Virus record (IMG/VR): IMGVR_UViG_3300026493_000141
Coordinates: 1 to 64,000 of that record
Reading direction: 5' to 3' (one strand)
Source: an uncultured virus (IMG/VR IMGVR_UViG_3300026493_000141)
Taxonomy: Duplodnaviria > Heunggongvirae > Uroviricota > Caudoviricetes
Length of the DNA: 64,000 nt
Of this stretch, positions 8,902-31,708 are shown piece by piece (position 1 is the stretch's first letter; the number at the start of each line of letters is the position of its first letter). The notes beneath the pieces are model-generated. The model was not told the origin of the DNA and did no database searches. It saw only the letters and a list, made by a program, of their open reading frames with translations. The position numbers were made by a program, and so were the translations under genes.

Positions 8902-10766
8902 GTAACCTTCACCTTCTCCGATAGTCTGGTCGCTTTTACTTTACGTATTTCGACACCTTTCTTATTCTTCTTCTTGTCATCTTTCTTAACTTTAGATACA
9001 TATTGTACACGAGCCTTACGTATAGCACGTTCCCCAAGCTCATGTCCGAACTCTTCAAGCATATCTTCAGCAGATGGCATACCCATCCAACGATGCATGA
9101 ATTGAACTGGTTCGTTTAATTCTAAATCTTCAATGAACTTACCACCTCTATCATACTTGTCCATATCAGTGATAACTTCTCGTTTCGTAATGTTACGATT
9201 ATCCATAATGACTCGACCCAGCTGCGTCGTAGCAAATATGTTGAATATCATGATAATCGATGGATATAGTGAACTATAGTCAAAGTCCATTACGTTATTA
9301 AATACATTTCGTGATTGATAGTTCTTCAAGATATTCATACCTGTAGGCAAGTTTAACTTCGGATCACCAACTACGGCACCCTCGAAGCGCTCTTGGTTCT
9401 CACTATCTCCTGAACTTTCACCATAGGTAATATTATGATTATTACCCATAACTAATCCTTGCTCCTGGAACTCCATTGCTGCTTTATTTCTCAGGAACAC
9501 AGTTTCTTTATATGTTTTATTGAATCGTGTACTAGAGTCATATGCTTTATTAAACAGTAACTCGATATCATTTAATTTATTTTCGATTTTCATCTGAATA
9601 AGTACATCTCGAATATTGTATCGTACAAACATCTTGTAATCTACATAAGGTAAGTTTCTGAAGTTTGCTGTACCCGTATATTCTAACTTCTTAGCTCCTA
9701 CTTCTCTATCACCTATGTAATCTAACTTATAGCTATCTAACTCTGCACCCGATTTACGAATCGCTGCATAGTTAATCATTTGGTCTACCCATACTGTAAA
9801 GCTAGTTAGTGTTGCATAATCACCTTTACGGTTAATTTTAAAGTTACGTTTATCTGCATAGTACCAACACTCTTTATACTTGAATGCTTCATCCGTCATG
9901 ATGTCTTCTGGGTCAATTCCTAATCGTTCGATACGGTGCATAATGTACTGAAAATCGAACCCGAGGTTCCATACCATCATAAAGTCTACACGGATAATAT
10001 TAATAATCTGGAATAACTTTCTGATTAATTCTATCTCAGTATCACACATGATAATATGGTACTCAAGTTTACCGAATTCTGGTTCGAACTCAGCTTCAAT
10101 CTCTTCAATGAATCCTGGAATGTCTTGCTCGAATTCCGCAATCAATGGATTCTCTGAGTTACGTAATAATAGAGTGAACGATTGTTTCTTATCATTGTCC
10201 ACAAGTGTTACAGCATTAATAGGAGCAGAACCTTCTACATTCTTCATATCAATGTTTCCTGCATAGATATCTGCCTCTATATCTAGGAACCCCTTAGTTA
10301 ACTTAAACTTCTCTTTTGTTCCAAAGTGTTCTAGACATTTAAACTTATAGAAATCCTCTACATCTACATCAGATGAGAAGATACGATTCCATTTATGGAA
10401 GTTCTTTAATTCAGAAGAACGTCGTTCTTTAATCATCTGCCAATACTGGTTGACGGCTTGCTCACCAATTAGACCAGCTATATCTTTCAAGACATAACGG
10501 TAACTTAAATCAACCTTATTAACTTTATCGGCTTCTATACAAATCATAGGATAGTCTATTTGGACATCATCCTTTGCCACATATGCTTCAATCTGTGGAT
10601 TCTCAATAATCTTTAATTGCTTCTCACCCGTCTTTATGTTTTTAATAATTAGTGAGATAGCGTCTGGAGTCATATCATCTCCATCACGTTTAGGCTTGTG
10701 GTACATCTGATTTAATAAGATGTAATCCCCGCCTTCTGGCAGTCCCAGTAGTTTGGTCATATCCAT
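8895..10766 (-). CDS. family B DNA polymerase, N-terminal part (3'-5' exonuclease + motif A) of a split enzyme
   Basis: ExoI DIEAD, ExoII VWNLGFD, ExoIII YNIRD, motif A DFDYSSLYPSII; motifs B and C absent; ATG 10766 has SD GGAGG. Confidence 0.9.
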   Translation of the reverse strand: MDMTKLLGLPEGGDYILLNQMYHKPKRDGDDMTPDAISLIIKNIKTGEKQLKIIENPQIEAYVAKDDVQIDYPMICIEADKVNKVDLSYRYVLKDIAGLIGEQAVNQYWQMIKERRSSELKNFHKWNRIFSSDVDVEDFYKFKCLEHFGTKEKFKLTKGFLDIEADIYAGNIDMKNVEGSAPINAVTLVDNDKKQSFTLLLRNSENPLIAEFEQDIPGFIEEIEAEFEPEFGKLEYHIIMCDTEIELIRKLFQIINIIRVDFMMVWNLGFDFQYIMHRIERLGIDPEDIMTDEAFKYKECWYYADKRNFKINRKGDYATLTSFTVWVDQMINYAAIRKSGAELDSYKLDYIGDREVGAKKLEYTGTANFRNLPYVDYKMFVRYNIRDVLIQMKIENKLNDIELLFNKAYDSSTRFNKTYKETVFLRNKAAMEFQEQGLVMGNNHNITYGESSGDSENQERFEGAVVGDPKLNLPTGMNILKNYQSRNVFNNVMDFDYSSLYPSIIMIFNIFATTQLGRVIMDNRNITKREVITDMDKYDRGGKFIEDLELNEPVQFMHRWMGMPSAEDMLEEFGHELGERAIRKARVQYVSKVKKDDKKKNKKGVEIRKVKATRLSEKVKVTW

Positions 10767-10837
10767 ATTAAAATTCCTCCCTTTATTCTCGGTTAATGAA
10801 GTGTTTCCCTCCTTTTCAATTTCAAGTCTTTTCTCTT

Positions 10838-10855
10838 TCACTTAGATAATATATA
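10838..10855 (-). promoter_or_regulatory. early-type promoter (DNA polymerase)
   Basis: TATATTAT CTAAG TGA. Confidence 0.7.
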
Positions 10856-10878
10856 TTTAAGACGAATGTTAAACTTAA

Positions 10879-10890
10879 AACAATATATTA
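10879..10890 (+). promoter_or_regulatory. late-type promoter
   Basis: AACA ATATAT TA upstream of the SD of ORF 10913. Confidence 0.7.
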
Positions 10891-10912
10891 TATACGTAGA
10901 GGAGGAATATAT

Positions 10913-12007
10913 ATGAAATTAAGAATAGCAAAGGTAAAACGTGTAGAACCCAAATCACAAAAGTTACCTACTTCTATACCAAGCGTGTATAAAGAAGAAA
11001 ATGATAAGGACTTAGCAATCTTAAATAGCCTAATGGCTAGTACTCGTATACGAGATAAAATGCACGAAGATAAAAAAGAAAAAGAGAAAAAAAAGAAAGA
11101 GAAACCATCGAAGAAGAAAAAAAGCGGTAAGAAACGTCAAAGTGCTATATCAGCACTTTACGAGATGAGTGGAACAAATAAAGATATATTTGGAGAAGGT
11201 GGTGGTGGAACTCCTGTACCTGCAACAAAAGCAGATAAGAGTGCAGAAGACTTCTACGAACAACGTTTCGATGGCTCCATTATGATGCTACGCGACCTAC
11301 TTAAAAATATTAATCATATGACAGAAGATGGTCAAGCATTCTTAGATATGCTGAAAAAGACACCTCATTATAGAGGCTACTTAACAGCTATTACGAACCA
11401 AACATCTAACTTAGCTTCACTAGTAAATACAAAGTTAAGTATCGTAAAAGAGATTACATCTGTTAATAAAAGTATCTCTGACCTTGAGCTTAAACGTGCG
11501 GCTAGAGAAGCGAAAGAAGGTAACGCTGCGGGTGGAGCTGGTGCTAGTGATGAATTCTTAATCAACCAAGCATTTGCTCAATTAATGGATACTGATACAC
11601 CTACCGTTACAACGAAGAAAAAGAAGAAGAAAAAGAAATTGGAAGAAGACCCGAATTATAACTTCGGTATTCCTGAAGATGAAATTGCATTGGAAGACTT
11701 GGGTGAAGAGGATTTCGATGATATGATTGATGCACGCTTCGATCAGCTCGTTGAGGCTGAAGATATTGTCTTAACAGACAATGAGCAAGCATTCCATTAT
11801 GAAGGTGATACTGGTATTAAGATTGTTATCCGTAAATGGTTACCATCAGAAAGATGGGAGTTCGAAGCGGTTAACGCTTTAGGAGAAGTGTTAGATGATC
11901 ATCCGTTACCAGATAGAGACTCTGTTGGACGTATTCAATTCGATAAAGATAAAGGAATTGCACGTGACAGATTAGGTACGGTTTATGAGGTTATGTATTC
12001 GAGATAA
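10913..12007 (+). CDS. hypothetical protein with N-terminal basic tag, poly-Lys tracts, coiled coil and acidic segment
   Basis: 364 aa, SD GAGGAGG; K-rich and D/E-rich low-complexity blocks. Confidence 0.8.
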   Translation: MKLRIAKVKRVEPKSQKLPTSIPSVYKEENDKDLAILNSLMASTRIRDKMHEDKKEKEKKKKEKPSKKKKSGKKRQSAISALYEMSGTNKDIFGEGGGGTPVPATKADKSAEDFYEQRFDGSIMMLRDLLKNINHMTEDGQAFLDMLKKTPHYRGYLTAITNQTSNLASLVNTKLSIVKEITSVNKSISDLELKRAAREAKEGNAAGGAGASDEFLINQAFAQLMDTDTPTVTTKKKKKKKKLEEDPNYNFGIPEDEIALEDLGEEDFDDMIDARFDQLVEAEDIVLTDNEQAFHYEGDTGIKIVIRKWLPSERWEFEAVNALGEVLDDHPLPDRDSVGRIQFDKDKGIARDRLGTVYEVMYSR

Positions 12008-12050
12008 AAAGGAGTGGTATAGGCTGAGCGCCTATACCACTTTCTTTGTC
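12006..12050. terminator. bidirectional terminator
   Basis: AGTGGTATAGGC/GCCTATACCACT 12-bp stem with tracts on both sides. Confidence 0.85.
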
Positions 12051-12105
12051 CATAGTCTAAGTACAATAATATACCTGAGGAGGAAATTCGGAATATTTTC
12101 CGATT
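12006..12105 (-). ncRNA. candidate ~100-nt late sRNA with anti-SD tract
   Basis: Late promoter 12105-12116 (-), 5' hairpin UCGGAA/UUCCGA, UUUCCUCCUCAGG, terminator; isolated from upstream genes by the terminator at 12141-12175; no ORF. Confidence 0.45.
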
Positions 12106-12137
12106 ATAATAATGTTGGGTAATGTAAGAGTAAAATA

Positions 12138-12175
12138 GACAAAAAAAGAAAGGAAGCGTTAATTCGCTTCCTTTT
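12138..12175 (-). terminator. intrinsic terminator
   Basis: AAAGGAAGCG/CGCTTCCTTT stem plus U-tract. Confidence 0.8.
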
Positions 12176-12181
12176 CATTTA

Positions 12182-12685
12182 TTACAAATCTTTATCGGTT
12201 GCCGCATCAACGATTATGTTATGGAAGTTTCTAAATCCTCCTGTACCTAATCGTCTAGAAGTAAATAGATTTGGTTTAAGTCCTTTGATACTAGCTACCC
12301 CATCTTTTGCACGATAGGCAATAGACAGGCTATCTGTACCTAAACTATGAATGACAAACTCTTCTTTCATAGGTTGGAATGTACCATTGGCTCCAATTAA
12401 ATCAAAGCGGTAGTTATCGACAAATTCATTGTTCTTTGTTTCCATTGCTTTTATAAACTCTAATACTTCTAATGGACCAGTAAAGCAATGAGTAATCTCC
12501 CCTGATTCGCCATCATTATATGCAATTGTGACTGACTTAGTATTATCATATTCTGTAAGCCTTACATGACCTGCAATCTCACGACGGATCATAGCAATTA
12601 TCTCATCGTGAGCAATAGTTAATACTAACCCCTTTAAGTCTGTACTTGAAGAAAGCAATTTTAATAAATGTGGCTGTGTTCCCAT
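12182..12685 (-). CDS. hypothetical protein, paralog of 12733
   Basis: Shares IxH..I.AM....SV.I.Y....PL(E/D)VLE with the next ORF. Confidence 0.7.
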   Translation of the reverse strand: MGTQPHLLKLLSSSTDLKGLVLTIAHDEIIAMIRREIAGHVRLTEYDNTKSVTIAYNDGESGEITHCFTGPLEVLEFIKAMETKNNEFVDNYRFDLIGANGTFQPMKEEFVIHSLGTDSLSIAYRAKDGVASIKGLKPNLFTSRRLGTGGFRNFHNIIVDAATDKDL

Positions 12686-12732
12686 CGTACTTGTCTCCCT
12701 CTAAGGTATATTTTTTTAATATACTTTTTATC

Positions 12733-13389
12733 TTATCGTTTCCATTTGCTTCCGCTTGGACCGAATAATTCGTCAAACTCCCCCGTGCTTAAATTAGCAT
12801 ATTCCTCATCAGATTCATCTGGATGTGTTGCTCTACCTTCTAATCCAGTGACTAATTCACCGACATCCCATTTTCTATCCCCTGCTAAATACATTGCATA
12901 ACTAAACGTTGGTAACATATCATTCACATATGTAGCCCATGGTTTCGTTGCATCAATATATTCTTTATCGATACCGCAATTGACATAGTATAAAATAGAT
13001 AATGTGTCTGAGCAAATAGCTTCTTCTTGAATAGTAAAGCATCCACCAGATTCATCTAACGTCCCACTTACTTCAATGTAGTTGTACGTACTTATCCCGT
13101 TCTCGTACATATCTTCTGAAAGCGCATCATTCCGTAAACGCATGACATCCTCCAGCACATCTAGTGGTGTATAATATTCTTTGTTCCATACCTTACCATT
13201 CTCTATATAGGTAATAGATACGGATTGAGCTTTCACACTATCAATAATTTTTACACCTTCCACATATTCACTTAGCATAGCTGTAATTACTTTATGTGGT
13301 ATGTGTATTTTAAAATCTTCCGATGCACTATCCGACAATAAGCTAATTTTATGTGTATCAAAGTGTCTTTTTAAATATCCGTTTCTCAT
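12733..13389 (-). CDS. hypothetical protein, paralog of 12182
   Basis: ATG 13389 with SD AGGGGA; shared motif with 12182. Confidence 0.7.
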   Translation of the reverse strand: MRNGYLKRHFDTHKISLLSDSASEDFKIHIPHKVITAMLSEYVEGVKIIDSVKAQSVSITYIENGKVWNKEYYTPLDVLEDVMRLRNDALSEDMYENGISTYNYIEVSGTLDESGGCFTIQEEAICSDTLSILYYVNCGIDKEYIDATKPWATYVNDMLPTFSYAMYLAGDRKWDVGELVTGLEGRATHPDESDEEYANLSTGEFDELFGPSGSKWKR

Positions 13390-13448
13390 TTGAGCCTTTC
13401 CCCTTTTTAAGGGTGTACCTTTTGGATACACCCGTTTATATTTTTTAT

Positions 13449-13868
13449 TTATCTAATATTAATTGAATTTAATACTTGAGCATAATTATTGATTACAATA
13501 TAAGTTTCATTATAAGGATGCTCCTGTGTTGCACGTCTTGTAGTTAGATGATAGCATTCATCCATATCAACTGTAAAGTCATGGTACATTGAAGATTGAC
13601 TACCCCAGTTAATTTTGATGAATCGTTGATATGCACCTTTTGTTAACGCTCTAAATGTAACGTGTTTATTCTTACCAATCGTTACCTCACCCTCCAGTGA
13701 AATAACATTTGATATAGGAATTCCATTTCGTAAGCACATTGTTTCTAACGCTGTATCTGTATACACTTCTGGATGTTGAGGCAATGCTTCTAAATACTCC
13801 TCTGAAACACCTGCTATTGTTAAGTTTGTTGAAATATCAAAGCTATATATGTTTTCTGTATTTTCCAT
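13449..13868 (-). CDS. hypothetical protein
   Basis: 139-aa ORF in a co-oriented run. Confidence 0.7.
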   Translation of the reverse strand: MENTENIYSFDISTNLTIAGVSEEYLEALPQHPEVYTDTALETMCLRNGIPISNVISLEGEVTIGKNKHVTFRALTKGAYQRFIKINWGSQSSMYHDFTVDMDECYHLTTRRATQEHPYNETYIVINNYAQVLNSINIR

Positions 13869-13869
13869 G

Positions 13870-14490
13870 TTATTGTTCCACCTTTCCGATGCGACTGATT
13901 CTGTTGTACGTTACTTCTTGATTTGGTACGACAATTAATAATAGATTCTTATCATCAGATGTTACTGTTTTAGCATGTACGATATACTGTAAGTAATGTA
14001 GTGCTAATGTGTGTTCAGTACCCCATTCAAATACAAACATTAAGAATTTAGGGTCTTCCAAATTCAATCTGATATCGGTTACGTCAGGTGTGTTATCTGA
14101 TTCGCTCACTATAACATTTCGATCTACTTCAACTATTGTAGAACCAACAATGTTTACGTCAGCTAGAGTATATTCCGGTACATCTACTCCAATACTCATT
14201 ACCTTTGTTACATCGAATCCTTTATCATAACAGAAATCGATTCCTGGGTTATGGTCATTTAATCGACTCCAATATAGTCTCATAAACGTAAATGCATCTA
14301 AATAGCGTCTTTCCCCTGTAGCTACATCGTTGATGTCTACAACATCATTTGCAGTACTATTAACACCAAATGCACCAGACCATTCACTCATTTTAGAGAC
14401 ATCTTTACGTTCAATAATGAAACGATAGTCTCCTTTAAACCCAAAATTCTTTAATTCTACTGCCAGTTCGTTTTCGTGAAACTTTGTCAT
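13870..14490 (-). CDS. hypothetical protein (similar to 14610)
   Basis: 206 aa, SD GAGGGAG. Confidence 0.75.
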   Translation of the reverse strand: MTKFHENELAVELKNFGFKGDYRFIIERKDVSKMSEWSGAFGVNSTANDVVDINDVATGERRYLDAFTFMRLYWSRLNDHNPGIDFCYDKGFDVTKVMSIGVDVPEYTLADVNIVGSTIVEVDRNVIVSESDNTPDVTDIRLNLEDPKFLMFVFEWGTEHTLALHYLQYIVHAKTVTSDDKNLLLIVVPNQEVTYNRISRIGKVEQ

Positions 14491-14609
14491 TTTATAACTC
14501 TCTCCCTCGGCTTTATAGTGACTTGTATTTTATACACGTCTAATATGATAATGTATATGTATAAGAGCGTTTATTACGAAAAAAAAAGCTAGGGAAATTA
14601 ATCCCTAGC

Positions 14610-15185: not shown

Positions 15186-15228
15186 CTCTCCCTTTATAGT
15201 ATAATATAATGGTCAAACTTTTCTAGAT

Positions 15229-15384
15229 TTATACAAAAAAAGAAAGACGTTTAGGTCTTTCTTCTTTAGACTTATCCGTAATGGATAAGTCTCTATCTTC
15301 GTTCTTTTTCTCTTCTAATTGTTTCATTTTAAATTCTAGTAATAAGTTCTCAAGTTCAAATAGTTTCTTATTGAGGTCTGACAA
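15229..15384 (-). CDS. possible 51-aa charged peptide (not in the ORF track)
   Basis: TTG start with SD AAGGAG 7 nt upstream; reads MSDLNKKLFELENLL...; the end runs through a terminator. Confidence 0.35.
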   Translation of the reverse strand: MSDLNKKLFELENLLLEFKMKQLEEKKNEDRDLSITDKSKEERPKRLSFFV

Positions 15385-15395
15385 ATTATATCTCC

Positions 15396-22583: not shown

Positions 22584-24344
22584 TTAATCCTCTAGCCGTG
22601 TTGCTTTCACTTTTCTTGCTTTTGGTTTTGTCTTGACCCTAGCTGGGTCAACTCGAACTACTTTTGCAATTCGTAGTTTATCATCCACATCTAATATATT
22701 ATATCCTTTGTTATACTCATCGTTACGGATGAAGTAATGGACATCTTCTAGACGTTCTACCATCTTACGAGATTTCTTCTCTTGTTGATAGAAGTAGTCA
22801 AGACCTTTAATTTCATATTGTTTTCCTTCAAAGTGGTTCGCATATAATTTCTTATAGTTTGCTAACCAATTATCCGGTTCAGGCGTATCATCAAAGTACA
22901 TTCCGAAGTTCTCCATGAACGGTGTAAATACGCCACCCATACCTGGATCAGATGAACCTGATGTATTAATGTCGAGTCGTCCAACGTGTGATGGATGTAC
23001 TCCGCGATACTTTATGTTTACAGCATTGCTACTATGCTCACCAAGTGAACCAGGACCCTTCGTTGAATACTTCAACGCTGTAAAGAAGTCCATGTCATTC
23101 ACAGTGTTATCATAGCGCAGTAAGCTGGATTTACTTTTGTGTAACTGTTTGATTAACTCATCTGGTGGGAATGTTAAGAGTCCCACTAAGTCAGCCATTG
23201 TTACTGCATTACGTTTACGGCTTAATAACATATTTACTTTCGTAGATAGTTTACGAATAAAGTAGAATGCAATGTACTCAGCCATACGAATACGTTTGTT
23301 TGCTAAGTCCATATTATCCTTAGCTTTCAACTCAGAGAAGTTACATAGTAACCATCTAATTAATGCATAGATGTTTTCTTTGTTGAATGGTTGTAGCTTC
23401 AGACTCTTACGAGTCGTGTTATCCAATAGACGATAGAACGAAAGTAATACATTCTTTCCTTTCTCTAACTGTCCATTGGTATTCTTTGCGAACTCAGCAC
23501 CTAATGAAGTGACCCAATAATCAACATCTTCTAATTGATGGAATTCTGTCTTCTTACATAACTCGTGTAACGCATATACCATTGACTGAACGAAGTGATC
23601 GTTGTCAAATAAGTATTTTACTACTTTTACGTATACATGGTTACACTTGAAATAATGATGTTCTTCATCATCCCAGTTTGGTTCAGCAACTACATCGATA
23701 GCATCCTCTACATTCATGAAGCGTAATGTATTCTCTAATCCCATTGTTGCTAAATAGTATAGGACAGCATTACATTTCTTCTTGAAGATACATAATGTAT
23801 AATGTGGAACCTGGAATGAATCTCCTGCTATAGAGTTCAGTTTTCCTGTGTTCCGTTTAATAATAATTGGCATGTACATTGTTTTCAATGTCACGTAATC
23901 CTTATTATTATAGGTACTACTATCTACAATCTGATAGATTGGATAGAACTTATTCCCACTCATCATCAGATAGTATTTCTTATATTGCTTCAATAACAGA
24001 AGTTCTACTTGCTTATACTGAACTTCATTGTTTAGCGTTAACTTAAAGTTTACACGAAGCATATTGTAACGAGTCACATCAATATTGATGTGCTTTTTGA
24101 TATTCTTTCCTTTGCTTTTCTTAGACTTTAAATACTTCTCATTAACAACATCTGTATCGAACTGAGACTCATGCTCAATGTAGTCATAGTCTAGCATTTT
24201 GATGTTATTAATTACTTCTAGTGATTTAAATGCATCTAAGATATAATCAACCAGAGGTTCATTTCTCATCCCGTAGATTAACTCTTCATTGATTCTCTTT
24301 CTGTTGGGATTCTCATACTGTGATATAAATTTTGAAAAACTCAT
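22584..24344 (-). CDS. phage multisubunit RNA polymerase beta subunit, N-terminal part (probably non-virion RNAP)
   Basis: MSGNKFYPIYQ, DNMDLANKRIR, KGPGSLG, YRGVHPSHVGRLD...SSDPG match RpoB conserved regions; ATG 24344 has SD GAGGGGG. Confidence 0.88.
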   Translation of the reverse strand: MSFSKFISQYENPNRKRINEELIYGMRNEPLVDYILDAFKSLEVINNIKMLDYDYIEHESQFDTDVVNEKYLKSKKSKGKNIKKHINIDVTRYNMLRVNFKLTLNNEVQYKQVELLLLKQYKKYYLMMSGNKFYPIYQIVDSSTYNNKDYVTLKTMYMPIIIKRNTGKLNSIAGDSFQVPHYTLCIFKKKCNAVLYYLATMGLENTLRFMNVEDAIDVVAEPNWDDEEHHYFKCNHVYVKVVKYLFDNDHFVQSMVYALHELCKKTEFHQLEDVDYWVTSLGAEFAKNTNGQLEKGKNVLLSFYRLLDNTTRKSLKLQPFNKENIYALIRWLLCNFSELKAKDNMDLANKRIRMAEYIAFYFIRKLSTKVNMLLSRKRNAVTMADLVGLLTFPPDELIKQLHKSKSSLLRYDNTVNDMDFFTALKYSTKGPGSLGEHSSNAVNIKYRGVHPSHVGRLDINTSGSSDPGMGGVFTPFMENFGMYFDDTPEPDNWLANYKKLYANHFEGKQYEIKGLDYFYQQEKKSRKMVERLEDVHYFIRNDEYNKGYNILDVDDKLRIAKVVRVDPARVKTKPKARKVKATRLED

Positions 24345-24431: not shown

Positions 24432-24761
24432 TTATTCTTCGTCAGATTCTTCTAACTCTTCTAGTTGAGCATCTGATTTAATACGTTTCTTGATCTCAGC
24501 ATGAGCTGTGATTCCGATAACGATTTCATCTTCCTGTTTAACACCTTTGAACTCGATGTAGTCAGCAAGTTTAACTACTACTGATGCTCCATTTTCAGCA
24601 TCTTTTAATTCTTCGCCGATTACAGTACCAACGTATTGGTAGTAACCTTTCACAGTATCTTCAACGAATGATGCGTCTTCGAAACGTACACGCATGTTGT
24701 CCTCGATGAATTGTGTTTGTCCTTCAAAGAATTTCTTGTCCATTTTAATTGTTTTAGCCAT
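24432..24761 (-). CDS. acidic HU/IHF-fold-like protein (paralog 1)
   Basis: Clear paralog of 24826; helix-helix then VKLADYIEF and GITAHAEIKK pattern. Confidence 0.55.
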   Translation of the reverse strand: MAKTIKMDKKFFEGQTQFIEDNMRVRFEDASFVEDTVKGYYQYVGTVIGEELKDAENGASVVVKLADYIEFKGVKQEDEIVIGITAHAEIKKRIKSDAQLEELEESDEE

Positions 24762-24825: not shown

Positions 24826-25134
24826 TTAAGCTTCGTTTGCTAATTCAACTAATTCTTCACCAGCAGTAATACCAATACCGAAGTTACCTTCAGACTCATC
24901 TGCACCTGCACGATAAGAAGCTTGGTATGTAACTAATCCATCTAATTCTAAAGCTACTGGTTCTTCTTCATTTTTATTTGCTCCAAGTACTTCACCAGCA
25001 TATTGGTGGTTACCTTTAACAACCATTTCTAATAAATCTAAATCTTCAGGATCATAGTCAACTCCATTGTTTTCTACTAGGAAAGCTGAAAGTCCTTTGA
25101 AGAATTCTTCGTTCATTTCGATTGTTTTAGTCAT
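24826..25134 (-). CDS. acidic HU/IHF-fold-like protein (paralog 2)
   Basis: ATG 25134 with SD GGAGG; LELDGLVTYQASYR and ITAGEELVE resemble HU VQLVGFGTFEVRER and FKAGKALKD. Confidence 0.55.
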   Translation of the reverse strand: MTKTIEMNEEFFKGLSAFLVENNGVDYDPEDLDLLEMVVKGNHQYAGEVLGANKNEEEPVALELDGLVTYQASYRAGADESEGNFGIGITAGEELVELANEA

Positions 25135-25172
25135 TTTAATTTCCTCCAATTAAGTTAAGTATATTTTTCCTA

Positions 25173-25252: not shown

Positions 25253-25316
25253 AAGCCGATATTAATTTTTAATAACATCGATTATAGAAGTGATTCCTCC
25301 TTATATTTTATTTGGT

Positions 25317-25336
25317 CTCACCTCTATAATGTATAG
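25317..25336 (-). promoter_or_regulatory. early-type promoter
   Basis: CTATACATTAT AGAGG TGAG. Confidence 0.75.
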
Positions 25337-25355
25337 TTATAATTTCTTTTAATTT

Positions 25356-26150: not shown

Positions 26151-26175
26151 TTTTCTTTCTCTCCCTTTGATTGGA

Positions 26176-26955
26176 TTATTTCTTTTTAGATTTTTCTTTT
26201 CCATCTTTAAATTTCTTATCAGTTATTGTTTTATTAGCAAATCGGGTTTGATCGTTATACTTAATCTTCATTGTAAACTCTAACTTAGGAAACTGTTTAG
26301 AGATTTTTTTAATTGCATCATGACTCATTTCAGCACGTACGTCGAATGAATATTCATGACGACTTTTCTTTTCACGTTTAAGTTCAATTGGAATATTATA
26401 TAATTGTAATGTACCTAATCCAAACACCTTTGTGCTCCATTCATCATATGTCAAGTGACTTGGTATAGCAGGAGATTCCTTTCTATACTTTGTAAACTCA
26501 CTTGGTTCAATTAAATTGAAGAAGCAATAGTCAGGCGTATGGGAACGTAGAAACTTCACATATAATTCATCAGCTTCTGCTTTTTCTTCAGGTGTTGCAT
26601 TCATACGTTTCAATGCAATATCAAACACTCCATCCGCAACCTGATCAATATCCATTCGTTGAAGTGTAACCCATGATAAATTTAAGTGATTATAGTTTGC
26701 ATACATAAATTTAAAAAGGTCTTCGATATGATGACCTTTATATTGCTTCTCAGAAAATGCTTTTCCACCTAACTTCATTAAAAAGTATTGGTAGAAGAAG
26801 TCAACTTTCTTTAAGTTATTATAACCGAAACTTTGTTTTACTCTGTCTGCTGAATCACCAAATACTTTATTGAATTTCTCTAATTGAGATGGGTTACCTT
26901 CTACGATTAATGTATGCTCATATTGTTTGATTGATTTTACGAATTTAGATGTCAT
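26176..26955 (-). CDS. YubB/DUF1281-like ferredoxin-fold protein (family B)
   Basis: LIVEGNPSQLEKF...YDEWSTKVFG...YSFD...IKKISKQFPKLEF pattern. Confidence 0.5.
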   Translation of the reverse strand: MTSKFVKSIKQYEHTLIVEGNPSQLEKFNKVFGDSADRVKQSFGYNNLKKVDFFYQYFLMKLGGKAFSEKQYKGHHIEDLFKFMYANYNHLNLSWVTLQRMDIDQVADGVFDIALKRMNATPEEKAEADELYVKFLRSHTPDYCFFNLIEPSEFTKYRKESPAIPSHLTYDEWSTKVFGLGTLQLYNIPIELKREKKSRHEYSFDVRAEMSHDAIKKISKQFPKLEFTMKIKYNDQTRFANKTITDKKFKDGKEKSKKK

Positions 26956-26993
26956 TTTAATTTCTCCCTTAGTCTAATTATTTTAGTTTTATA

Positions 26994-27938
26994 TTACTCG
27001 GATTCTAATTGTAAGTTTAAATGTGATACAATATCTCTCATGCCTTCAGCTTTGCCTTCAACATGCATTTTTAAATAATCTCCACATAATTGCTCTGCGT
27101 AATGAGATGTATAGTCACTACCTTCTAGATGCATTCCAAAGTGGATATTATATTCTTTTACGTATTTAGGTAAATCTACTTTCTCTCTAAATCTTTCAGC
27201 TAACATATAAGCTGTACAATCTCTTACAGCGCGTAAAACCGGTAGCCATCTTCTCTCAATAAGAGGTCTAGATGTACCATAATGCTCTGCAAGTTCTTCA
27301 TCACTATTGTATTTATTTTCAAATATTGTTAACTGAACCATTTCCAAACCAATACCTCTTAACCCACAGAAGTTTAATTTATACATAGGAATTCTAAGTT
27401 CATTTAACGCTATCTCTAAATACATTTGTATCTTATCTATTCTTGAATCATCAAATGTTCTCTTACGTTTAATGATTGAATCAGAAGGTTTAACTAATGA
27501 TTCTACAAGACTTTCAGCATAGAATTTCAATTGAGCACATTTGTCAATCTCATACTCTTGTACATATTCTTTTACTTCTTCTGTCCGCACATCTATGAAC
27601 GTACGCATATCACTTTCAATACCAGCACGTTGCATAAATTGTGTGCTGATTTTAGATGTAAATACTTGACGTAATCTGTTTGCTAAACGACGCTGTTTCT
27701 GCATACAGTTTGACATTGCATCTCCTGAGAACTTTGAGTACTCAATAGTTGTATTGAAATAATTGTGTACTAATAAGTCGTCAAATAACTCTACCTCAGT
27801 ATGTGTGAAGTTAGCTTCTAAATCTTCTCTTGTATATCCTATACCTCTTAGTAGTTCCGCATACATTTGAATATCATCTGCAACATGCGTAAGACAGTCT
27901 CTATCAGTATAGTTTCTATTAATTGTTAATTGTGTCAT
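26994..27938 (-). CDS. hypothetical protein with possible sigma-region-4-like HTH
   Basis: SDEELAEHYGTSRPLIERR HTH-like segment; ATG 27938. Confidence 0.5.
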   Translation of the reverse strand: MTQLTINRNYTDRDCLTHVADDIQMYAELLRGIGYTREDLEANFTHTEVELFDDLLVHNYFNTTIEYSKFSGDAMSNCMQKQRRLANRLRQVFTSKISTQFMQRAGIESDMRTFIDVRTEEVKEYVQEYEIDKCAQLKFYAESLVESLVKPSDSIIKRKRTFDDSRIDKIQMYLEIALNELRIPMYKLNFCGLRGIGLEMVQLTIFENKYNSDEELAEHYGTSRPLIERRWLPVLRAVRDCTAYMLAERFREKVDLPKYVKEYNIHFGMHLEGSDYTSHYAEQLCGDYLKMHVEGKAEGMRDIVSHLNLQLESE

Positions 27939-27973
27939 GGTTATATTCCCCCGCATAGTCTAATTTATTTTAA

Positions 27974-28252
27974 TTACATAGAATCCATTACTATTAAATA
28001 GGCTTGTAAAGCTACTGTAATTCGTTCTATTGTATCTTTATCTTTACTTGGATATTTCTTTACAATATATTTTGCAACTCGTTTCGGATTTCTCCTTGGT
28101 GACCATCTACGCCACCAAGGTCCTGATTGATAGTATTTCATAAACGCTGATAGTACTAGTTGTACATCACGTCTTTCAAACTTCATACCATCATTTGCTC
28201 TTTCTACAAATTCATGAATGATTCTTAATTCTTGAATATATTCACTTAACAC
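27974..28252 (-). CDS. hypothetical protein
   Basis: 92 aa, SD GGAGG, overlaps the upstream stop. Confidence 0.65.
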   Translation of the reverse strand: MLSEYIQELRIIHEFVERANDGMKFERRDVQLVLSAFMKYYQSGPWWRRWSPRRNPKRVAKYIVKKYPSKDKDTIERITVALQAYLIVMDSM

Positions 28253-28545
28253 TGTTCTTCCTCCTTCACTCTAGCATAATGAATCATGCTAGAGCCGATA
28301 TGGAATATTAATGCTTTACGTATTGGTGGTAACTTGTCCCCGTAATTATCGAGGACAAAGTTTGTGAAACGCATTTTCTTTCTGATTAGTATCTTACTTT
28401 GCTCTACCACCGTAAATCGATGTGTTGCAAGTAATAATGTTTCTAATACGTTTGTTTCCATAAAGGGTGCTCCGCACTCTTTATGTAAGTAATCTCTAAT
28501 CTGCGTAATCTCAGGCAAGTATTCTACTAATCGTTTATTCACCAT
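28246..28545 (-). CDS. hypothetical protein (weakly similar to 27974)
   Basis: LVEYLPEITQI versus LSEYIQELRII. Confidence 0.65.
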   Translation of the reverse strand: MVNKRLVEYLPEITQIRDYLHKECGAPFMETNVLETLLLATHRFTVVEQSKILIRKKMRFTNFVLDNYGDKLPPIRKALIFHIGSSMIHYARVKEEEQC

Positions 28546-28554
28546 TCTTCTTCC

Positions 28555-29076
28555 TTATCGTTTATTATTTTCTTTAATTTCTTCCGCTTGTTTCATTTTT
28601 TCGATGGCTTCTAGTTTTATAATGACATAATAAACTAGATTGCCCATATTTTCATTTTCTTTAGATGGTACAAGAGAAGTTTCGTGCCATGATGCAAGTA
28701 ACCCAAAATGTTTATTTAATGCAATATCAATATGCTCATTATCACCGTATGCATTGAATATCATTGGTGTTAAATTTTTATCAAATAATCTAAGTAGCAT
28801 AAAGTTACCATCATTATTGACAGTAAAAGTATGCATATCAAAGTTAATATAATGACCAATCCATGATAGTTGAACTTCAATATTTTCTGGTAAATAATAT
28901 TCCTTTGTAAGATGTGGTTTTGAATCAGGTAATGTATATGCTCTCTTGTATCCTTTTTCAAGATAGTTAAATGGTGTTGCTACAGGAATATCTGTTTCTT
29001 GAAATACTGTGAATGATGGTCCTGTGATAATATCTACTGTCGTGTTTAGTGCGTCTATTTTATTTACGTTTGTCAT
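28555..29076 (-). CDS. hypothetical protein
   Basis: 173 aa, SD AGGGAG. Confidence 0.7.
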   Translation of the reverse strand: MTNVNKIDALNTTVDIITGPSFTVFQETDIPVATPFNYLEKGYKRAYTLPDSKPHLTKEYYLPENIEVQLSWIGHYINFDMHTFTVNNDGNFMLLRLFDKNLTPMIFNAYGDNEHIDIALNKHFGLLASWHETSLVPSKENENMGNLVYYVIIKLEAIEKMKQAEEIKENNKR

Positions 29077-29109
29077 TTTAATTAGCTCCCTTAGTTTATA
29101 TTATTTTTA

Positions 29110-29523
29110 TTATTTAGCTAAACGTGAAACATTCTTTCCAGCTTTTTTTAATTTCTTAGCATCCTTATTTGACCAGCCATGTTTATCTTGCATTTCTATC
29201 ATAGCCTTCTTACCCCAGCCAAATACAATTCCCCAAATTAAAGCTAATTCCGAGGATTCGCTCCAATCTCTGCTACTACTAGCAAGAATCTCTTTTAGCA
29301 TACCCAAACCTTTTCCAACTTCCTCTACATCAATTGGGATAACATCTAATTCATTTATATCAGTATATCTTCCTCCACAGAAAGTTTCCCCTGAACCAAT
29401 GATGTATGCTTTAACAGTTCCATCATTATCACGGTATTCTGTCTTAAACCCGATTGTATCATTATATCTAAATAATGAACCCGGTTCTACATCTTCTAAT
29501 TTTACAGTCTTAGTCATTTTCAT
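29110..29523 (-). CDS. hypothetical protein
   Basis: 137 aa, SD AAGGAG. Confidence 0.7.
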   Translation of the reverse strand: MKMTKTVKLEDVEPGSLFRYNDTIGFKTEYRDNDGTVKAYIIGSGETFCGGRYTDINELDVIPIDVEEVGKGLGMLKEILASSSRDWSESSELALIWGIVFGWGKKAMIEMQDKHGWSNKDAKKLKKAGKNVSRLAK

Positions 29524-29557
29524 TCTCCTTTGCTTTATGAAAGACAGGTAAGAGGAA

Positions 29558-31708
29558 TTAACCTCTTACCTTCTTTTCAAACTCTTTACGCGAAATTACT
29601 TCAATACCTTTGTCTAAAGCCTTCGCTACTTTCTTCTTACTCGTATCATGTGGATCAGTTGCCACTAAATATGTCAACCCTTTGAATCCACTGTCTACTA
29701 CTTTATATCCTTTTGCTTCACACTCTTTCTTTAAGTCCTTATCTCGGAATCCAGTAAACATAACTTTCTTCTTACCAGTATCCTGATGTGCTTCGAACTT
29801 AGAATGTATAATGTTATTTGTAAATACTTCTTGTAATAGATATTGTAAAGTCGGCATGACTTCATCTAATCCATTAATAAAGTTTTCTTTCTTAGCATCT
29901 CTTACATTCGGAATATTAACTGTCCCGATAGAATAAGAGTTCTTCATTACTTCTTGTAATGTATACCAATTTAAAATCTGCTCACTCGTCTTTGGACCAG
30001 AGATACCTAACGCATTACATAAGTTATAATCATGTATCGGTTCGGTTCTAATTCTCTCAATCTCAGACTTTATATTATTTACTTTTGATTCTCCGAATCC
30101 ATCTAATTGTAAGATAGCTGAATAATCTAGATTAAATAATGATGGGATATCCGTAAGGAGACCTTCATCATATAATCGTGTTACTGTCTTATCAGCAAAG
30201 TCTTTCAGACCTAATGCTTTGATAAAGAATGTAATACGATTCAAATGTTTCGTTGTACAATTACCATTTGCACAGAAATAGTTCTTTCCTTTCTGTACTA
30301 TAGACCCTCCACAGCTTGGACATTGGTCAGGATATCCAATGACTGGACCCATCCCGTTATGTCGTACGGTTGGTTGCACATAAGGCATTACATCACCGTT
30401 ATAAGATACTGTAACTGTATCTCCGTAATGTAAATTCATCTTACTAAATCTCTCATAAGATGATAGTGTACTATGATTGTGGATTGTACCATTTAGTTCA
30501 ATCGGATCATAGAAAAGGATCGGTGTTAATAATCCTGTACGACCTACGGTTACTTCGAATCCTTTAACAGTCGTCTGCACTTCATCGGGTGGATACTTGT
30601 AAGCTACCTGATATTTATTAATTGCATTCTTTCTTCCAAACTCATCACGAATCTCATCATTGATTACATCGATAACGATACCATCAATTGCGAATCCTAA
30701 GTCTGGACGCTTTACTCGAATGTCTGCTATGAAGTCATGAATCTTAGCCATCGCTTCTTTTACCGATGTTACTTCTAACTCAATAAATGATAGTGCTAAG
30801 TTCTGTGCAAACATTTTGTTTATTACCGCATAGGATACTTCCTCATCGGTATCTGTTACGGCATACAATGGAACTGGTGTTAAGTACTTTGCATACTTGG
30901 CTCCATTACTAGCTGATACAATACTAACTGCCGCGCTTCGACAGTTTGCATAACTCTTTCCTCGTTCTTCCATGTATAAATCACGGTTTGCTTTTGTTAC
31001 AATTAACTCTGTCTTCAATCCGAAGTTTAACCCCATTTCATTTAAGGCATTCGGATATCTTACATTTGTAAATAAGTGTGTTAGGTCTGTTCCATTACCA
31101 TCATCACCACGAGTGATTGCTGATACAACTTTACCTGTTACACTATCTATTTCTAAGATGACAGATACGCCATCATACTTTAATGATAATCTGATACGAA
31201 GAGGTCCACGGCTTCTAGCCATCCAACTTCTAATGAAGGATTCAACATCTTTCGTACCTTCTTTCCTTTGTGTGTTATCTGCTGTATAGATAAAATGAGC
31301 CTTGTCTAATGTACCACGTAATAGTGGAAACTCATGTGTCGTATCTTTCGTACGTCTACCAACAAATAATGTAGCCTCAATTGGCTCAGCGCGATAAGAC
31401 TTAAATTTATCTAATGTTATGTCATATATCTTATCGCTTACAAACTCCTTTCCATTTTCGTATATGATTTTTAATGCCTTGATAATGTCTTCAACACTAT
31501 CAAGCATTTCATCTATTTTCTTTTCTTTACCTTCTTTAACGAAGCGTTCCATATATAATTCAACGCCCGCTTTCTTCAGCGTATTCTTCGCTTGACGTAG
31601 CTTTCCTTTCTTTGCAAGCTTCAATGCTTTTGCAAATAATTCTTCAGGAGCTACTGTTAGTTCATCTGGCTTAATTCGTTTGACTCTCGCTACTCTAATT
31701 TCAGTCAT
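29558..31708 (-). CDS. ligA: NAD-dependent DNA ligase
   Basis: KYDG adenylation motif, AITRGDD, IDGIV, VAYKYP, TVGRTG, CPSC-C-C zinc finger, HhH repeats, C-terminal BRCT (VMFTGFR). Confidence 0.95.
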   Translation of the reverse strand: MTEIRVARVKRIKPDELTVAPEELFAKALKLAKKGKLRQAKNTLKKAGVELYMERFVKEGKEKKIDEMLDSVEDIIKALKIIYENGKEFVSDKIYDITLDKFKSYRAEPIEATLFVGRRTKDTTHEFPLLRGTLDKAHFIYTADNTQRKEGTKDVESFIRSWMARSRGPLRIRLSLKYDGVSVILEIDSVTGKVVSAITRGDDGNGTDLTHLFTNVRYPNALNEMGLNFGLKTELIVTKANRDLYMEERGKSYANCRSAAVSIVSASNGAKYAKYLTPVPLYAVTDTDEEVSYAVINKMFAQNLALSFIELEVTSVKEAMAKIHDFIADIRVKRPDLGFAIDGIVIDVINDEIRDEFGRKNAINKYQVAYKYPPDEVQTTVKGFEVTVGRTGLLTPILFYDPIELNGTIHNHSTLSSYERFSKMNLHYGDTVTVSYNGDVMPYVQPTVRHNGMGPVIGYPDQCPSCGGSIVQKGKNYFCANGNCTTKHLNRITFFIKALGLKDFADKTVTRLYDEGLLTDIPSLFNLDYSAILQLDGFGESKVNNIKSEIERIRTEPIHDYNLCNALGISGPKTSEQILNWYTLQEVMKNSYSIGTVNIPNVRDAKKENFINGLDEVMPTLQYLLQEVFTNNIIHSKFEAHQDTGKKKVMFTGFRDKDLKKECEAKGYKVVDSGFKGLTYLVATDPHDTSKKKVAKALDKGIEVISRKEFEKKVRG

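What the first reader, a model, noticed from the sequence alone, without database searches (positions are those of the whole stretch)
8922..31702. Shared basic peptide tag on the termini of unrelated DNA-transaction proteins: candidate phage docking or localisation signal
Seen directly, motif 1: the 364-aa protein begins M-KLRIAKVKRVEP (10916-10951), the RNAP beta-N subunit carries KLRIAKVVRVDP near its end (22644-22679; 10/12 identical), and the NAD ligase begins MT-EIRVARVKRIKP (31667-31702). Motif 2: RKVKATRL is identical at the C-terminus of RNAP beta-N (22593-22616) and of the split DNA polymerase (8922-8945), which also has a weaker motif-1-like IRKARVQYV just before it. All copies lie in terminal extensions outside the catalytic folds. 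They use different synonymous codons (AGA AAA GTG AAA GCA ACA CGG CTA versus CGT AAA GTA AAA GCG ACC AGA CTA), pointing to selection on the peptide rather than a recent DNA repeat. Inference: an alternating basic/hydrophobic beta-strand that occurs at either terminus looks like a portable address tag binding a common hub by beta-augmentation, such as a replication-compartment scaffold, an import gate, a clamp or a tubulin adaptor. I know of no described linear tag of this kind in jumbo phages. Weaker candidates occur at the termini of 32428 (VSVKHIRP), 25356 (VTMTMVKP) and 52313 (KLVKLVP).
Basis: partly seen in the sequence, partly recalled or inferred. Interest (0 to 1): 0.88.

Follow-up and report, generated by a model that had tools for sequence, protein, structure and literature searches.

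The report
Shared basic tag on phage enzymes
An uncultured giant phage has put the same short, positively charged peptide on the loose ends of about a dozen otherwise unrelated proteins, mostly its DNA-copying and RNA-making enzymes, which looks like a common address or docking label whose receptor is still unknown.

Summary
The window holds 6 copies on 4 proteins. The whole phage (a 223-kb IMG/VR record, AR9/PBS1-like) holds 15 copies on 12 proteins, all within 46 residues of an N- or C-terminus. A regex finds 12 hits against 0.02-0.03 in composition-preserving shuffles. Carriers are DNA polymerase B N-half, two non-virion RNA polymerase subunits (beta-N, beta'-N), NAD ligase, topoisomerase II A, DnaB-like helicase, a small DNA-binding protein and five unknowns: 7 of 28 DNA/RNA-class proteins against 5 of 200 others and 0 of 19 structural. 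Synonymous codons are randomised, so selection is on the peptide. The one tail modelled (beta-N) is predicted disordered. AR9 and three complete relatives lack the tag. Closer metagenomic relatives keep a tag at the same termini in lineage-specific wording shared between protein families (modest support, p = 0.025). Best reading (0.4): a docking or address peptide that gathers the replication and transcription machinery on a common, unidentified receptor. Main rival (0.3): direct binding to DNA or another polyanion. No clamp, chimallin or shell gene was found.

The parts
8895..10841 (-). Family-B DNA polymerase, N-terminal half (exonuclease domain plus start of the polymerase domain). The C-half is encoded far away, at G001 149487-151427.
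   Evidence: Pfam PF03104 and PF00136; phrog_3011 covers residues 47-604 of 648; C-half phrog_2927
8997..9023 (-). Tag copy IRKARVQYV, 33 residues from the C-terminus of the polymerase N-half
   Evidence: 24.7 bits
8922..8948 (-). Tag copy IRKVKATRL, 8 residues from the C-terminus of the polymerase N-half
   Evidence: 22.8 bits
10913..12007 (+). 364-aa protein of unknown function (phrog_27823). Distant homologues are widespread in uncultured phages; only the closer ones are tagged.
   Evidence: no PDB, Atlas, NCBIfam or GenBank-phage match
10919..10945 (+). Tag copy LRIAKVKRV at residues 3-11 of the 364-aa protein
   Evidence: 24.3 bits
22584..24410 (-). Non-virion RNA polymerase beta subunit, N-half (orthologue of AR9 gp105). 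The true start is probably the ATG at 24344 (586-aa form P0007).
22650..22676 (-). Tag copy LRIAKVVRV, 21 residues from the C-terminus of beta-N, in a tail with pLDDT 30-43
22593..22619 (-). Tag copy ARKVKATRL, 2 residues from the C-terminus of beta-N
29558..31708 (-). NAD-dependent DNA ligase with an N-terminal extension of about 50-65 residues that AR9's ligase lacks
31673..31699 (-). Tag copy IRVARVKRI at residues 4-12 of the ligase
   Evidence: 25.0 bits

Best explanation
The peptide is a short linear docking or address motif, h-R-x-[A/V]-[K/R]-[V/A]-x-R-h. It sits on flexible terminal extensions of the phage's replication, repair and middle/late-transcription proteins, plus a few clade-specific proteins of unknown function. 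It most likely binds one common receptor made during infection, probably a phage protein with an acidic, narrow groove. That would concentrate the tagged proteins at the place where phage DNA is copied and transcribed (a replication/transcription factory or compartment).

Shown: the motif, its excess over chance, its strictly terminal position, selection on the peptide, enrichment on DNA/RNA enzymes, absence from the virion RNAP and from structural proteins, its gain as extensions within one clade, and its persistence at the same termini with lineage-specific wording.

Inferred: that it binds anything, that the partner is a protein, and that the outcome is co-localisation.
For: (1) There are 15 copies above 13 bits on 12 of 238 ORFs of the 223-kb phage, all within 46 residues of a terminus. 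The probability of that under uniform placement within the carriers is about 10^-9.4.
(2) At identical-residue positions between copies, 185 of 461 use the same codon against 171 expected from codon usage. This is not a DNA repeat or recent gene conversion.
(3) Columns 2, 4, 5 and 6 are invariant in class in 15 of 15 copies: R; A or V only; K/R; V or A only. Column 8 is R in 14 of 15. That size restriction suits a fitted pocket better than loose electrostatics.
(4) Seven of 28 DNA/RNA-class proteins are tagged against 5 of 200 others (Fisher p = 1e-4), and 0 of 19 structural, lysis or packaging proteins.
(5) Both tagged RNAP subunits are orthologues of AR9 non-virion subunits gp105 and gp270. 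None of the other RNAP-like ORFs is tagged.
(6) Multi-subunit enzymes carry the tag on only some subunits: polymerase N-half but not C-half, and topoisomerase II A but not B.
(7) The beta-N tail is predicted unstructured.
(8) AR9 has 0 pattern matches against 11 in this phage, and the reversed-pattern control gives 0 in this phage. Orthologues in three complete relatives lack the tag at all corresponding termini except for a short basic start on the helicase.
(9) Closer relatives keep a tag at the same termini in their own wording. In the sister phage the ligase has IRKVTVRRL, beta-N has VRKVTVRRL, the helicase has MRKVKVKRL and the 364-aa homologue has IRKVKVRRV. An 'LFKN' wording occurs on beta-N tails, a ligase, helicases and 364-aa homologues.
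(10) N-termini match the beta-N tail of their own contig better than tails of other contigs: mean 21.7 against 18.9, p = 0.025 over all 5040 permutations.
Against: - No receptor was identified. No clamp, PCNA, chimallin or shell family was found.
- Tubulin, GroEL and PPK1 occur in untagged relatives too, so none tracks the tag.
- The co-variation test is weak: 9 N-termini in 7 genomes, of which 3 rank poorly (ranks 4, 6 and 7 of 7).
- The dialect regexes were written after seeing the data.
- Tags are flanked by lysine-rich runs, as in generic nucleic-acid-binding tails, and all identified carriers already act on DNA.
- Only one complete tag-bearing genome could be read. 152 of its 228 proteins lack homologues in untagged relatives, so profiling could not narrow a receptor.
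- Functional classes rest on PHROG and Pfam names.
- No binding prediction or experiment was done.
Confidence: 0.4

Rival explanations
1. The tag is a small nucleic-acid (or other polyanion) binding arm. Together with its lysine-rich flanks it tethers each enzyme directly to phage DNA, which may be modified or uracil-containing as in AR9-type phages, or to RNA or polyphosphate. The 'hub' is then the DNA itself.
For: All identified carriers are DNA or RNA enzymes or DNA-binding proteins. Arginines recur every third residue with small residues beside them. Tags sit next to K-rich runs. The pattern is nearly palindromic: reversed sites score 18.7 bits against -7.4 for shuffled sites, which would suit a two-fold symmetric ligand such as duplex DNA. 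No protein receptor was found. The phage encodes a polyphosphate kinase.
Against: Non-specific binding to a polyanion does not explain why 15 copies keep the same nine positions while synonymous sites are randomised. It does not explain why wording differs between lineages yet is shared between families within a lineage. It also does not explain why related phages with the same enzymes do without it. PPK1 is present in untagged relatives too. The AT-hook core R-G-R-P (recalled) is absent.
Confidence: 0.3
2. The tag is a recognition signal for an unfoldase or protease (host ClpX-type or phage-encoded). It would be a terminal degron or remodelling tag that times the activity or turnover of the replication and transcription proteins.
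For: Terminal position at either end and basic-plus-hydrophobic make-up resemble known terminal recognition tags such as the basic C-terminal tag of MuA recognised by ClpX (recalled from memory, not tested).
Against: There is no evidence of processing. Nothing explains why most of the replication machinery should share a degron. Host unfoldases are conserved, so lineage-specific wording is unexpected. The phage's only recognised protease is a T4-type prohead protease.
Confidence: 0.07
3. The tag is a capsid-targeting (cargo-loading) peptide that packs these proteins into the virion for injection with the DNA.
For: Terminal cargo peptides of this general kind exist, for example the T4 capsid-targeting sequence and encapsulin cargo-loading peptides (recalled; an encapsulin paper was seen only as a search listing). 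Jumbo phages do package many proteins, and AR9-type phages package an RNAP (annotation notes).
Against: The two tagged RNAP subunits are orthologues of AR9's non-virion enzyme. None of the other RNAP-like ORFs, among which the virion RNAP subunits should lie, is tagged, nor are any of 19 structural, lysis or packaging proteins. Ligase, replicative helicase and topoisomerase are not expected virion cargo.
Confidence: 0.05
4. The shared tails are historical residue with little function of their own. A small coding cassette was copied onto several genes, for example together with homing-endonuclease or split-gene events.
For: Three tagged C-termini (polymerase N-half, beta-N, beta'-N) lie exactly at the break points of split genes. 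Homing-endonuclease ORFs interrupt RNAP genes in this phage and its sister.
Against: The genes downstream of the two in-window split halves are not the partner halves. AR9's split genes lack the tails. N-terminal copies on unsplit genes are unexplained. Synonymous sites are saturated while nine peptide positions are held, and the tag persists over 40-80% protein divergence.
Confidence: 0.03

Closest known systems
Sliding-clamp-binding terminal peptides (T4 gp45 partners gp43, gp33 and gp55; PIP boxes; bacterial beta-clamp motif). T4 details are recalled; a beta-clamp hub review was seen as a search listing only.
   Same: Short peptides on the extreme termini of a polymerase, transcription proteins, a ligase and other DNA enzymes, docking on one common hub. 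This is the best precedent for replication and transcription proteins sharing a tag.
   Different: Those motifs are hydrophobic or aromatic, not arginine-rich. No clamp-like gene was detected here. The tag also sits on a helicase, a topoisomerase and small unknown proteins.
Protein import into the Chimalliviridae phage nucleus (PicA/Imp pathway)
   Same: The same classes of protein (polymerase, non-virion RNAP, recombination and repair enzymes) must be gathered around phage DNA in a jumbo phage that also has a PhuZ-like tubulin.
   Different: In chimalliviruses no conserved signal sequence was found and targeting uses residues on the folded surface (passages read in PMC11087766, and PMC12908238). 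This phage is AR9-like, a group said to lack chimallin (passage in PMC13282480), and no match to phiKZ gp54 was found.
Classical basic nuclear localisation signals of eukaryotes (recalled)
   Same: A short K/R-rich linear signal that works at different positions, is sometimes doubled ('bipartite'), and is carried by DNA and RNA enzymes.
   Different: Bacterial virus; no importin-like protein known; fixed small hydrophobic residues between the basic ones.
Cargo-loading peptides of encapsulins and encapsulation peptides of bacterial microcompartments (recalled; PMC11659603 seen as a listing only)
   Same: Terminal peptides at either end of unrelated enzymes that address them to one protein assembly.
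   Different: No shell gene apart from the phage's own capsid protein. Different sequence. Cargo here are DNA enzymes.
AT-hooks and other basic DNA-binding arms (recalled)
   Same: Short arginine-rich stretches with small neighbours on DNA-acting proteins.
   Different: No R-G-R-P core. Strict nine-position conservation, strictly terminal position and lineage-specific wording.

Membership tests
Clamp-binding peptide (T4 gp45 type, PIP box, beta-clamp motif) | A sliding clamp is available as receptor | tested here: not met
   No clamp, PCNA or gp45 family among 154 proteins at E <= 1e-4 or 1e-3, nor among 27 unannotated proteins of the replication neighbourhoods at E <= 1. PHROGs names none. 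The host clamp could not be tested.
Clamp-binding peptide (T4 gp45 type, PIP box, beta-clamp motif) | Consensus with glutamine and paired hydrophobic or aromatic residues (recalled) | tested here: not met
   Column make-up of 15 copies shows no Q and no aromatic pair; R, K, A and V dominate.
Clamp-binding peptide (T4 gp45 type, PIP box, beta-clamp motif) | Located at the extreme termini of the polymerase and other DNA enzymes | tested here: met
   All 15 copies lie within 46 residues of a terminus.
Chimallivirus nuclear import cargo | Phage encodes a chimallin shell | tested here: not met
   phiKZ gp54 finds nothing in G001-G004 at E <= 1 and no Pfam hit was found. This is a single-sequence search on a 90%-complete genome, so it is a weak negative.
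Chimallivirus nuclear import cargo | Cargo recognised through folded surface residues, with no terminal signal | tested here: not met
   Here the shared feature is a terminal linear peptide, predicted disordered in the one tail modelled. The literature statement was read.
Capsid-targeting or cargo-loading peptide | Cargo are virion-internal proteins | tested here: not met
   The tagged RNAP subunits are orthologues of AR9 non-virion subunits. 0 of 19 structural, lysis or packaging proteins are tagged. Actual virion content was not testable.
Capsid-targeting or cargo-loading peptide | Short terminal peptide shared by unrelated cargo | tested here: met
AT-hook | Core R-G-R-P (recalled) | tested here: not met
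   No G or P inside the 9-mer in any of 15 copies.
Short linear motif (SLiM) in a disordered region | Lies in a disordered or low-confidence region outside folded domains | tested here: met
   beta-N tail pLDDT is 30-43 with no secondary structure. Domain matches end before or start after the tags in polymerase, ligase, topoisomerase, helicase and beta'-N. Only one carrier was modelled.
Short linear motif (SLiM) in a disordered region | Binds a defined partner domain | not testable with these tools
   No receptor candidate. No complex prediction was sent because no specific pair is claimed.
AR9/PBS1-like jumbo phage (genome context) | Split multisubunit virion and non-virion RNAPs, split family-B polymerase, NAD ligase, with AR9-group phages as best named relatives | tested here: met
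   identities are only about 27-36%, so this is a distant relative and not a Takahashivirus.

The most novel reading that the evidence does not exclude
This clade of non-chimallin jumbo phages uses a true terminal signal sequence, the functional equivalent of a nuclear localisation signal, to recruit or import its replication and transcription machinery into a dedicated phage compartment or condensate through one receptor. Each lineage would speak its own dialect of the signal, which would also keep the enzymes of co-infecting relatives out.
Probability: 0.2. Interest if true: 0.9.

Novelty: new variant of a known kind. Interest (0 to 1): 0.72.

Why it matters
Work on nucleus-forming phages looked for a conserved targeting sequence on replication and transcription proteins and found none (PMC11087766, passages read).

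Here a different jumbo-phage clade shows exactly such a sequence, on the same kinds of protein. It is short enough to synthesise or to fuse to a reporter. If it is an address tag, it provides:
- a direct handle to fish out the receptor;
- a way to find out whether AR9-like phages also organise a replication site;
- a portable tag for sending proteins to phage DNA.

If it instead binds DNA directly, it is a new compact DNA-binding module. Either way it marks five proteins of unknown function as probable members of the replication/transcription machinery.

Tried and rejected
- **Near-identical DNA search:** no named phage found.
- **Earlier notes of this scan:** none for this genome.
- **More tag-bearing genomes:** IMG/VR holds only this phage from the tagged clade. 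IMG/VR relatives at 31-38% identity have acidic tails. The GTDB scan gave one untagged MAG contig. The JGI metagenome scan gave one sister locus of 21 kb, and its 230-kb contig could not be reached.
- **Unbiased terminal 8-mer scan:** the first threshold was useless, giving giant components in the shuffles too. After calibration it recovers only the RKVKA.RL cluster in G001, finds nothing in G002 or G003, and finds an unrelated motif in G004. It is too insensitive for 6-7-residue dialects. One script call gave no answer.
- **Phylogenetic profile for a receptor:** 152 of 228 proteins are clade-specific, too many to be useful.
- **Hub candidates:** tubulin, GroEL and PPK1 do not track the tag. 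No clamp was found. The giant 3602-aa ORF is a tail tape-measure/lysin protein.
- **Unknown carriers:** no match in GenBank phages, PDB sequences, the ESM Atlas or NCBIfam.
- **Tails against PDB sequences:** nothing relevant.
- **Mirror-image idea:** the two sub-types (x-A-R-V-K and K-V-K-A-x) might be mirror images that bind in opposite directions. This rests on essentially one A/V swap, and the sister phage has V at both positions, so it is kept only as a remark.
- **Fold of the 364-aa family:** never obtained.
- **Complex prediction:** not sent, because no specific pair is claimed.

Full report
**What the window is.** The 64-kb window is the first half of a 125,074-bp virus assembly. That assembly is the reverse complement of positions 1368-126441 of a 223,016-bp IMG/VR record, which CheckV rates 90% complete and which I call G001. 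PHROGs and Pfam show a jumbo phage with these features:
- split multisubunit RNA polymerases;
- a family-B DNA polymerase encoded as two distant halves;
- NAD ligase, topoisomerase II A and B, a DnaB-like helicase, a primase and a UvsX-like recombinase;
- SbcCD, a PhuZ-like tubulin, a GroEL and a polyphosphate kinase.

Its best named relatives are the AR9/PBS1 group of Bacillus, the jumbo phages of Staphylococcus and Listeria, and Yersinia phiR1-37, at only about 27-36% protein identity. AR9-like phages are described as lacking chimallin (passage read in PMC13282480). phiKZ gp54 finds nothing in G001 at E <= 1, which is a weak negative.

**The observation.** The two motifs are one. IRKVKATRL aligns position for position with IRKARVKRV, giving h-R-x-[A/V]-[K/R]-[V/A]-x-R-h.
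- In the 125-kb assembly a regex for this gives 12 hits in 9 of 151 ORFs. Shuffles give means of 0.02-0.03 (maximum 2) in 2000 rounds each, shuffling whole proteins or blocks of 30 or 15 residues. The excess is therefore not a by-product of K/R-rich tails.
- The regex was written after the fact, but there are two out-of-sample checks. A weight matrix from the 125-kb part found three further copies, plus one weak one, in the 98 kb that it had not seen.
- Scores are bimodal: 12 sites above 20 bits and nothing between 9 and 20.
- A degenerate DNA pattern finds 11 places in G001 (10 of them tags) and 0 with the reversed control. It finds 0 in the 251-kb AR9 genome.

**Anatomy.** G001 has 15 copies above 13 bits on 12 proteins, plus a weak one (12.5 bits) on a RusA-like resolvase. 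All lie within 46 residues of a terminus, which has a probability of about 10^-9.4 if placed uniformly within the carriers.

Carriers inside the window:

| Carrier | Terminus | Copies |
|---|---|---|
| DNA polymerase N-half | C | 2 |
| 364-aa unknown | N | 1 |
| non-virion RNAP beta-N | C | 2 |
| NAD ligase | N | 1 |

Carriers outside the window:

| Carrier | Coordinates | Terminus |
|---|---|---|
| topoisomerase II A | G000 70786-73251 | N |
| 321-aa unknown | G000 76947-77912 | N (2 copies) |
| DnaB-like helicase | G000 80089-81738 | N (residues 1-9) |
| RNAP beta'-N | G000 108436-109953 | C |
| 291-aa unknown | G000 122439-123314 | C |
| 125-aa DNA-binding protein | G001 172624-173001 | C (last residues) |
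| 323-aa unknown | G001 205849-206820 | C |
| 73-aa unknown | G001 210691-210912 | C |

Domain matches end before, or begin after, the tags. An AlphaFold2 model of beta-N, built from a 22-sequence alignment, gives pLDDT 30-43 and no secondary structure for residues 543-586, which hold both copies. Only this one carrier was modelled.

Column make-up over the 15 copies is strict:
- R at position 2 in 15 of 15;
- only A or V at positions 4 and 6 in 15 of 15;
- K or R at position 5 in 15 of 15;
- R at position 8 in 14 of 15;
- hydrophobic residues at positions 1 and 9 in 14 and 13 of 15.

The pattern is nearly palindromic. Reversed sites still score 18.7 bits on average against -7.4 for shuffled sites. 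This may help it to work at either end of a chain. I give little weight to the further idea that the two sub-types are mirror images.

**Peptide, not DNA.** At the 461 positions where two copies share a residue, 185 share the codon, against 171 expected from the genome's codon usage. Synonymous sites are thus randomised while nine peptide positions are held. This excludes a recent DNA repeat or gene conversion and shows selection on the peptide.

**Who carries it.** By PHROG and Pfam class, 7 of 28 DNA/RNA-metabolism proteins are tagged, against 5 of 200 others (Fisher p = 1e-4) and 0 of 19 structural, lysis or packaging proteins.
- The two tagged RNAP subunits are orthologues of AR9 gp105 and gp270. 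AR9's record annotates both as non-virion RNAP subunits. None of the other RNAP-like ORFs is tagged.
- In the polymerase only the N-half is tagged, and in topoisomerase II only the A subunit.
- The five carriers of unknown function have no homologue in GenBank phages, PDB sequences, NCBIfam or the Atlas. Those five and the small DNA-binding protein have no homologue in the three complete untagged relatives.
- The enzyme carriers are conserved proteins that gained an extension. AR9's ligase and gp105 are shorter and lack the tagged ends.
- In G002-G004 the corresponding termini of beta'-N, topoisomerase A, ligase, beta-N, polymerase N-half and RusA carry no tag. Only the helicase starts with a short basic run (MPKVKRR, MARIKRR, MPKMIKKRK), which may be the seed of the motif.

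**Relatives.** Of 64 beta-N homologues, those nearer than about 37-39% identity and about 570-640 aa long end, by eye, in one or two basic/hydrophobic repeats. The ~490-aa forms (AR9 type) and more distant ones do not. The wording differs by lineage and recurs on other families:

| Wording | Where it occurs |
|---|---|
| RKV[TK]V[RK]R[LV] (sister phage, 82% beta-N) | ligase IRKVTVRRL, beta-N VRKVTVRRL, helicase MRKVKVKRL, nearest 364-aa homologue IRKVKVRRV |
| K-I-K-[IV]-(K)-R-H-L | one 27,505-bp contig: ligase QIKIKRHL and beta-N KIKVRHL |
| 'LFKN' | beta-N tails (P0022, P0027, P0031, P0033, P0047, P0064), a ligase (P0082), helicases (P0088, P0089), three 364-aa homologues (P0206, P0209, P0210) |

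N-termini match the beta-N tail of their own genome better than tails of other genomes: mean 21.7 against 18.9, p = 0.025 over all 5040 permutations, and 0.044 without this phage. Four of 9 rank first (two of them tied), two rank second and three rank poorly. I regard co-variation as suggested, not established. Post hoc regexes for four dialects hit the relevant terminus in 9 of 64, 8 of 12, 14 of 120 and 8 of 125 family members, with interior rates near zero except for one pattern in beta-N.

**What it most likely is.** The facts fit a short linear motif on disordered termini that is read by one common partner. The facts in question are a fitted nine-residue pattern, strict terminal placement, peptide-level selection, gain as extensions on conserved enzymes within one clade, restriction to the replication, repair and non-virion-transcription set plus clade-specific unknowns, and lineage wording shared across families. 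I favour a phage-encoded protein receptor that concentrates these proteins where phage DNA is replicated and transcribed (confidence 0.4).

The nearest working analogies are listed here; the T4, encapsulin and NLS details are recalled from memory:
- the terminal clamp-binding peptides that T4 places on its polymerase and late-transcription proteins;
- cargo-loading peptides of protein compartments;
- basic nuclear localisation signals.

Membership in each fails on at least one tested feature. No clamp, shell or chimallin gene was found, and the sequence differs. In Chimalliviridae the literature states that no terminal signal exists and that targeting uses folded-surface residues (passages read).

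**Rivals.**
- *Direct binding to DNA or another polyanion (0.3)* is the serious one. All identified carriers act on DNA, the tags are flanked by lysine runs, arginines recur every third residue, and no receptor was found. It explains poorly the strict conservation of small hydrophobic positions, the lineage wording, and the absence of the tag from relatives with the same enzymes.
- *A degron or unfoldase tag (0.07), a capsid-packaging signal (0.05) and functionless residue of cassette spread (0.03)* are each contradicted by specific results: non-virion RNAP tagged, none of the other RNAP-like ORFs and no structural protein tagged, saturated synonymous sites, and long persistence.

**Limits.**
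- Only one complete tagged genome was readable.
- The receptor search by annotation and by presence/absence profile failed: 152 of 228 proteins are clade-specific, and tubulin, GroEL and PPK1 are also in untagged genomes.
- Functional classes are family names, not tested functions.
- Gene calls are my own longest-ORF calls. Several starts are uncertain, for example beta-N at 24344 rather than 24410, and topoisomerase A at the ATG seven codons in.
- The second fold could not be run, and no complex prediction was sent.
- Five literature searches and passages of four papers showed no description of such a tag. Subscription journals and supplements were not examined.

**Verdict.** This is a real, statistically strong, lineage-specific terminal motif that marks the replication/transcription set of an uncultured AR9-like jumbo phage clade. 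Its mechanism is unproven. It is a new variant of a known kind (shared docking or address peptides), and it is directly testable.

Noticed in passing
G000 99659-101857 (-), outside the window (L003:659-2857): A complete polyphosphate kinase PPK1 (all four Pfam domains, E 1e-30 to 1e-72) encoded by the phage. Homologues are also present in the untagged relatives G002-G004, and probably in the MAG contig L068 (judged by eye from its N-terminal sequence).
   Followed up: partly
window 35777-48677 (-), also G000 106256-108047: About 20 tandem small ORFs (about 160-220 aa) of unknown function whose C-termini share a '[IV]Y[IV]P' word (HIYIPESRIR, RVYIPQSRLSE, NIYIPQERLQ, HVYQPNINP). This is a large paralogue expansion, and the unbiased terminal scan recovered it as a cluster.
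   Followed up: partly
window 24432-24761 and 24826-25149 (-): Two very acidic small paralogues (109 and 107 aa, net charge -11 and -19) lie directly upstream of the non-virion RNAP beta-N gene. AR9 has its uracil-DNA-glycosylase inhibitor at the same position. They are conserved in the sister phage (48-55% identity) and may be DNA mimics.
   Followed up: no
window 55386-56501 (-): Tubulin/PhuZ-like protein (Pfam Tubulin, E 1.5e-15) with a strongly acidic C-terminal tail. Homologues exist in G002-G004.
   Followed up: partly
G004 (IMG/VR record of 254,592 bp), e.g. 526-1173, 4277-4774, 32397-32951, 109929-111260: A different shared terminal word, roughly '(D)NSYAIESFINYCDDMMIAEEG', sits at the N-terminus of 11 proteins and the C-terminus of one. 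The scan gives 44 high-scoring terminal pairs against about 2 in shuffles. It may be a second, unrelated kind of terminal tag, or an N-terminal module of a gene family.
   Followed up: no
L044 11452-12123 (sister phage) and G001 215464-216219: HNH-type homing-endonuclease ORFs interrupt RNAP genes. In the sister phage the beta-N gene is cut into pieces of 485 and 121 aa, and the second piece carries the tags. In G001 an HNH ORF sits between a 1316-aa RNAP gene and a 69-aa remainder.
   Followed up: partly
window 32428-33471 (-) and G001 143992-145455 (-): The 347-aa protein (MVRKNVSVKHIRP) and a DNA helicase (MTKVTVKHTS) both start with a 'V[ST]VKH' word that recalls the sister phage's RKVTVRR. 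These may be degenerate tags, but they do not score with the matrix.
   Followed up: no
window 61133-62245 (-) and G001 129241-131496 (-): There are two terminase-large-subunit-like ORFs. The 370-aa one in the window matches only the N-terminal ATPase part (phrog_32359); a 751-aa one lies elsewhere. This may be a duplicated or split terminase gene.
   Followed up: no
G001 136512-137159, 137163-137828, 141125-141757: Three paralogous proteins of about 210 aa near the capsid gene share an N-terminal 'LIPKMT' word.
   Followed up: no
window 50413-51510 (-): A 365-aa protein with net charge +36 and no family match lies between the UvsX-like recombinase and the RNase H-like exonuclease. It is a candidate DNA-binding accessory factor.
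   Followed up: no
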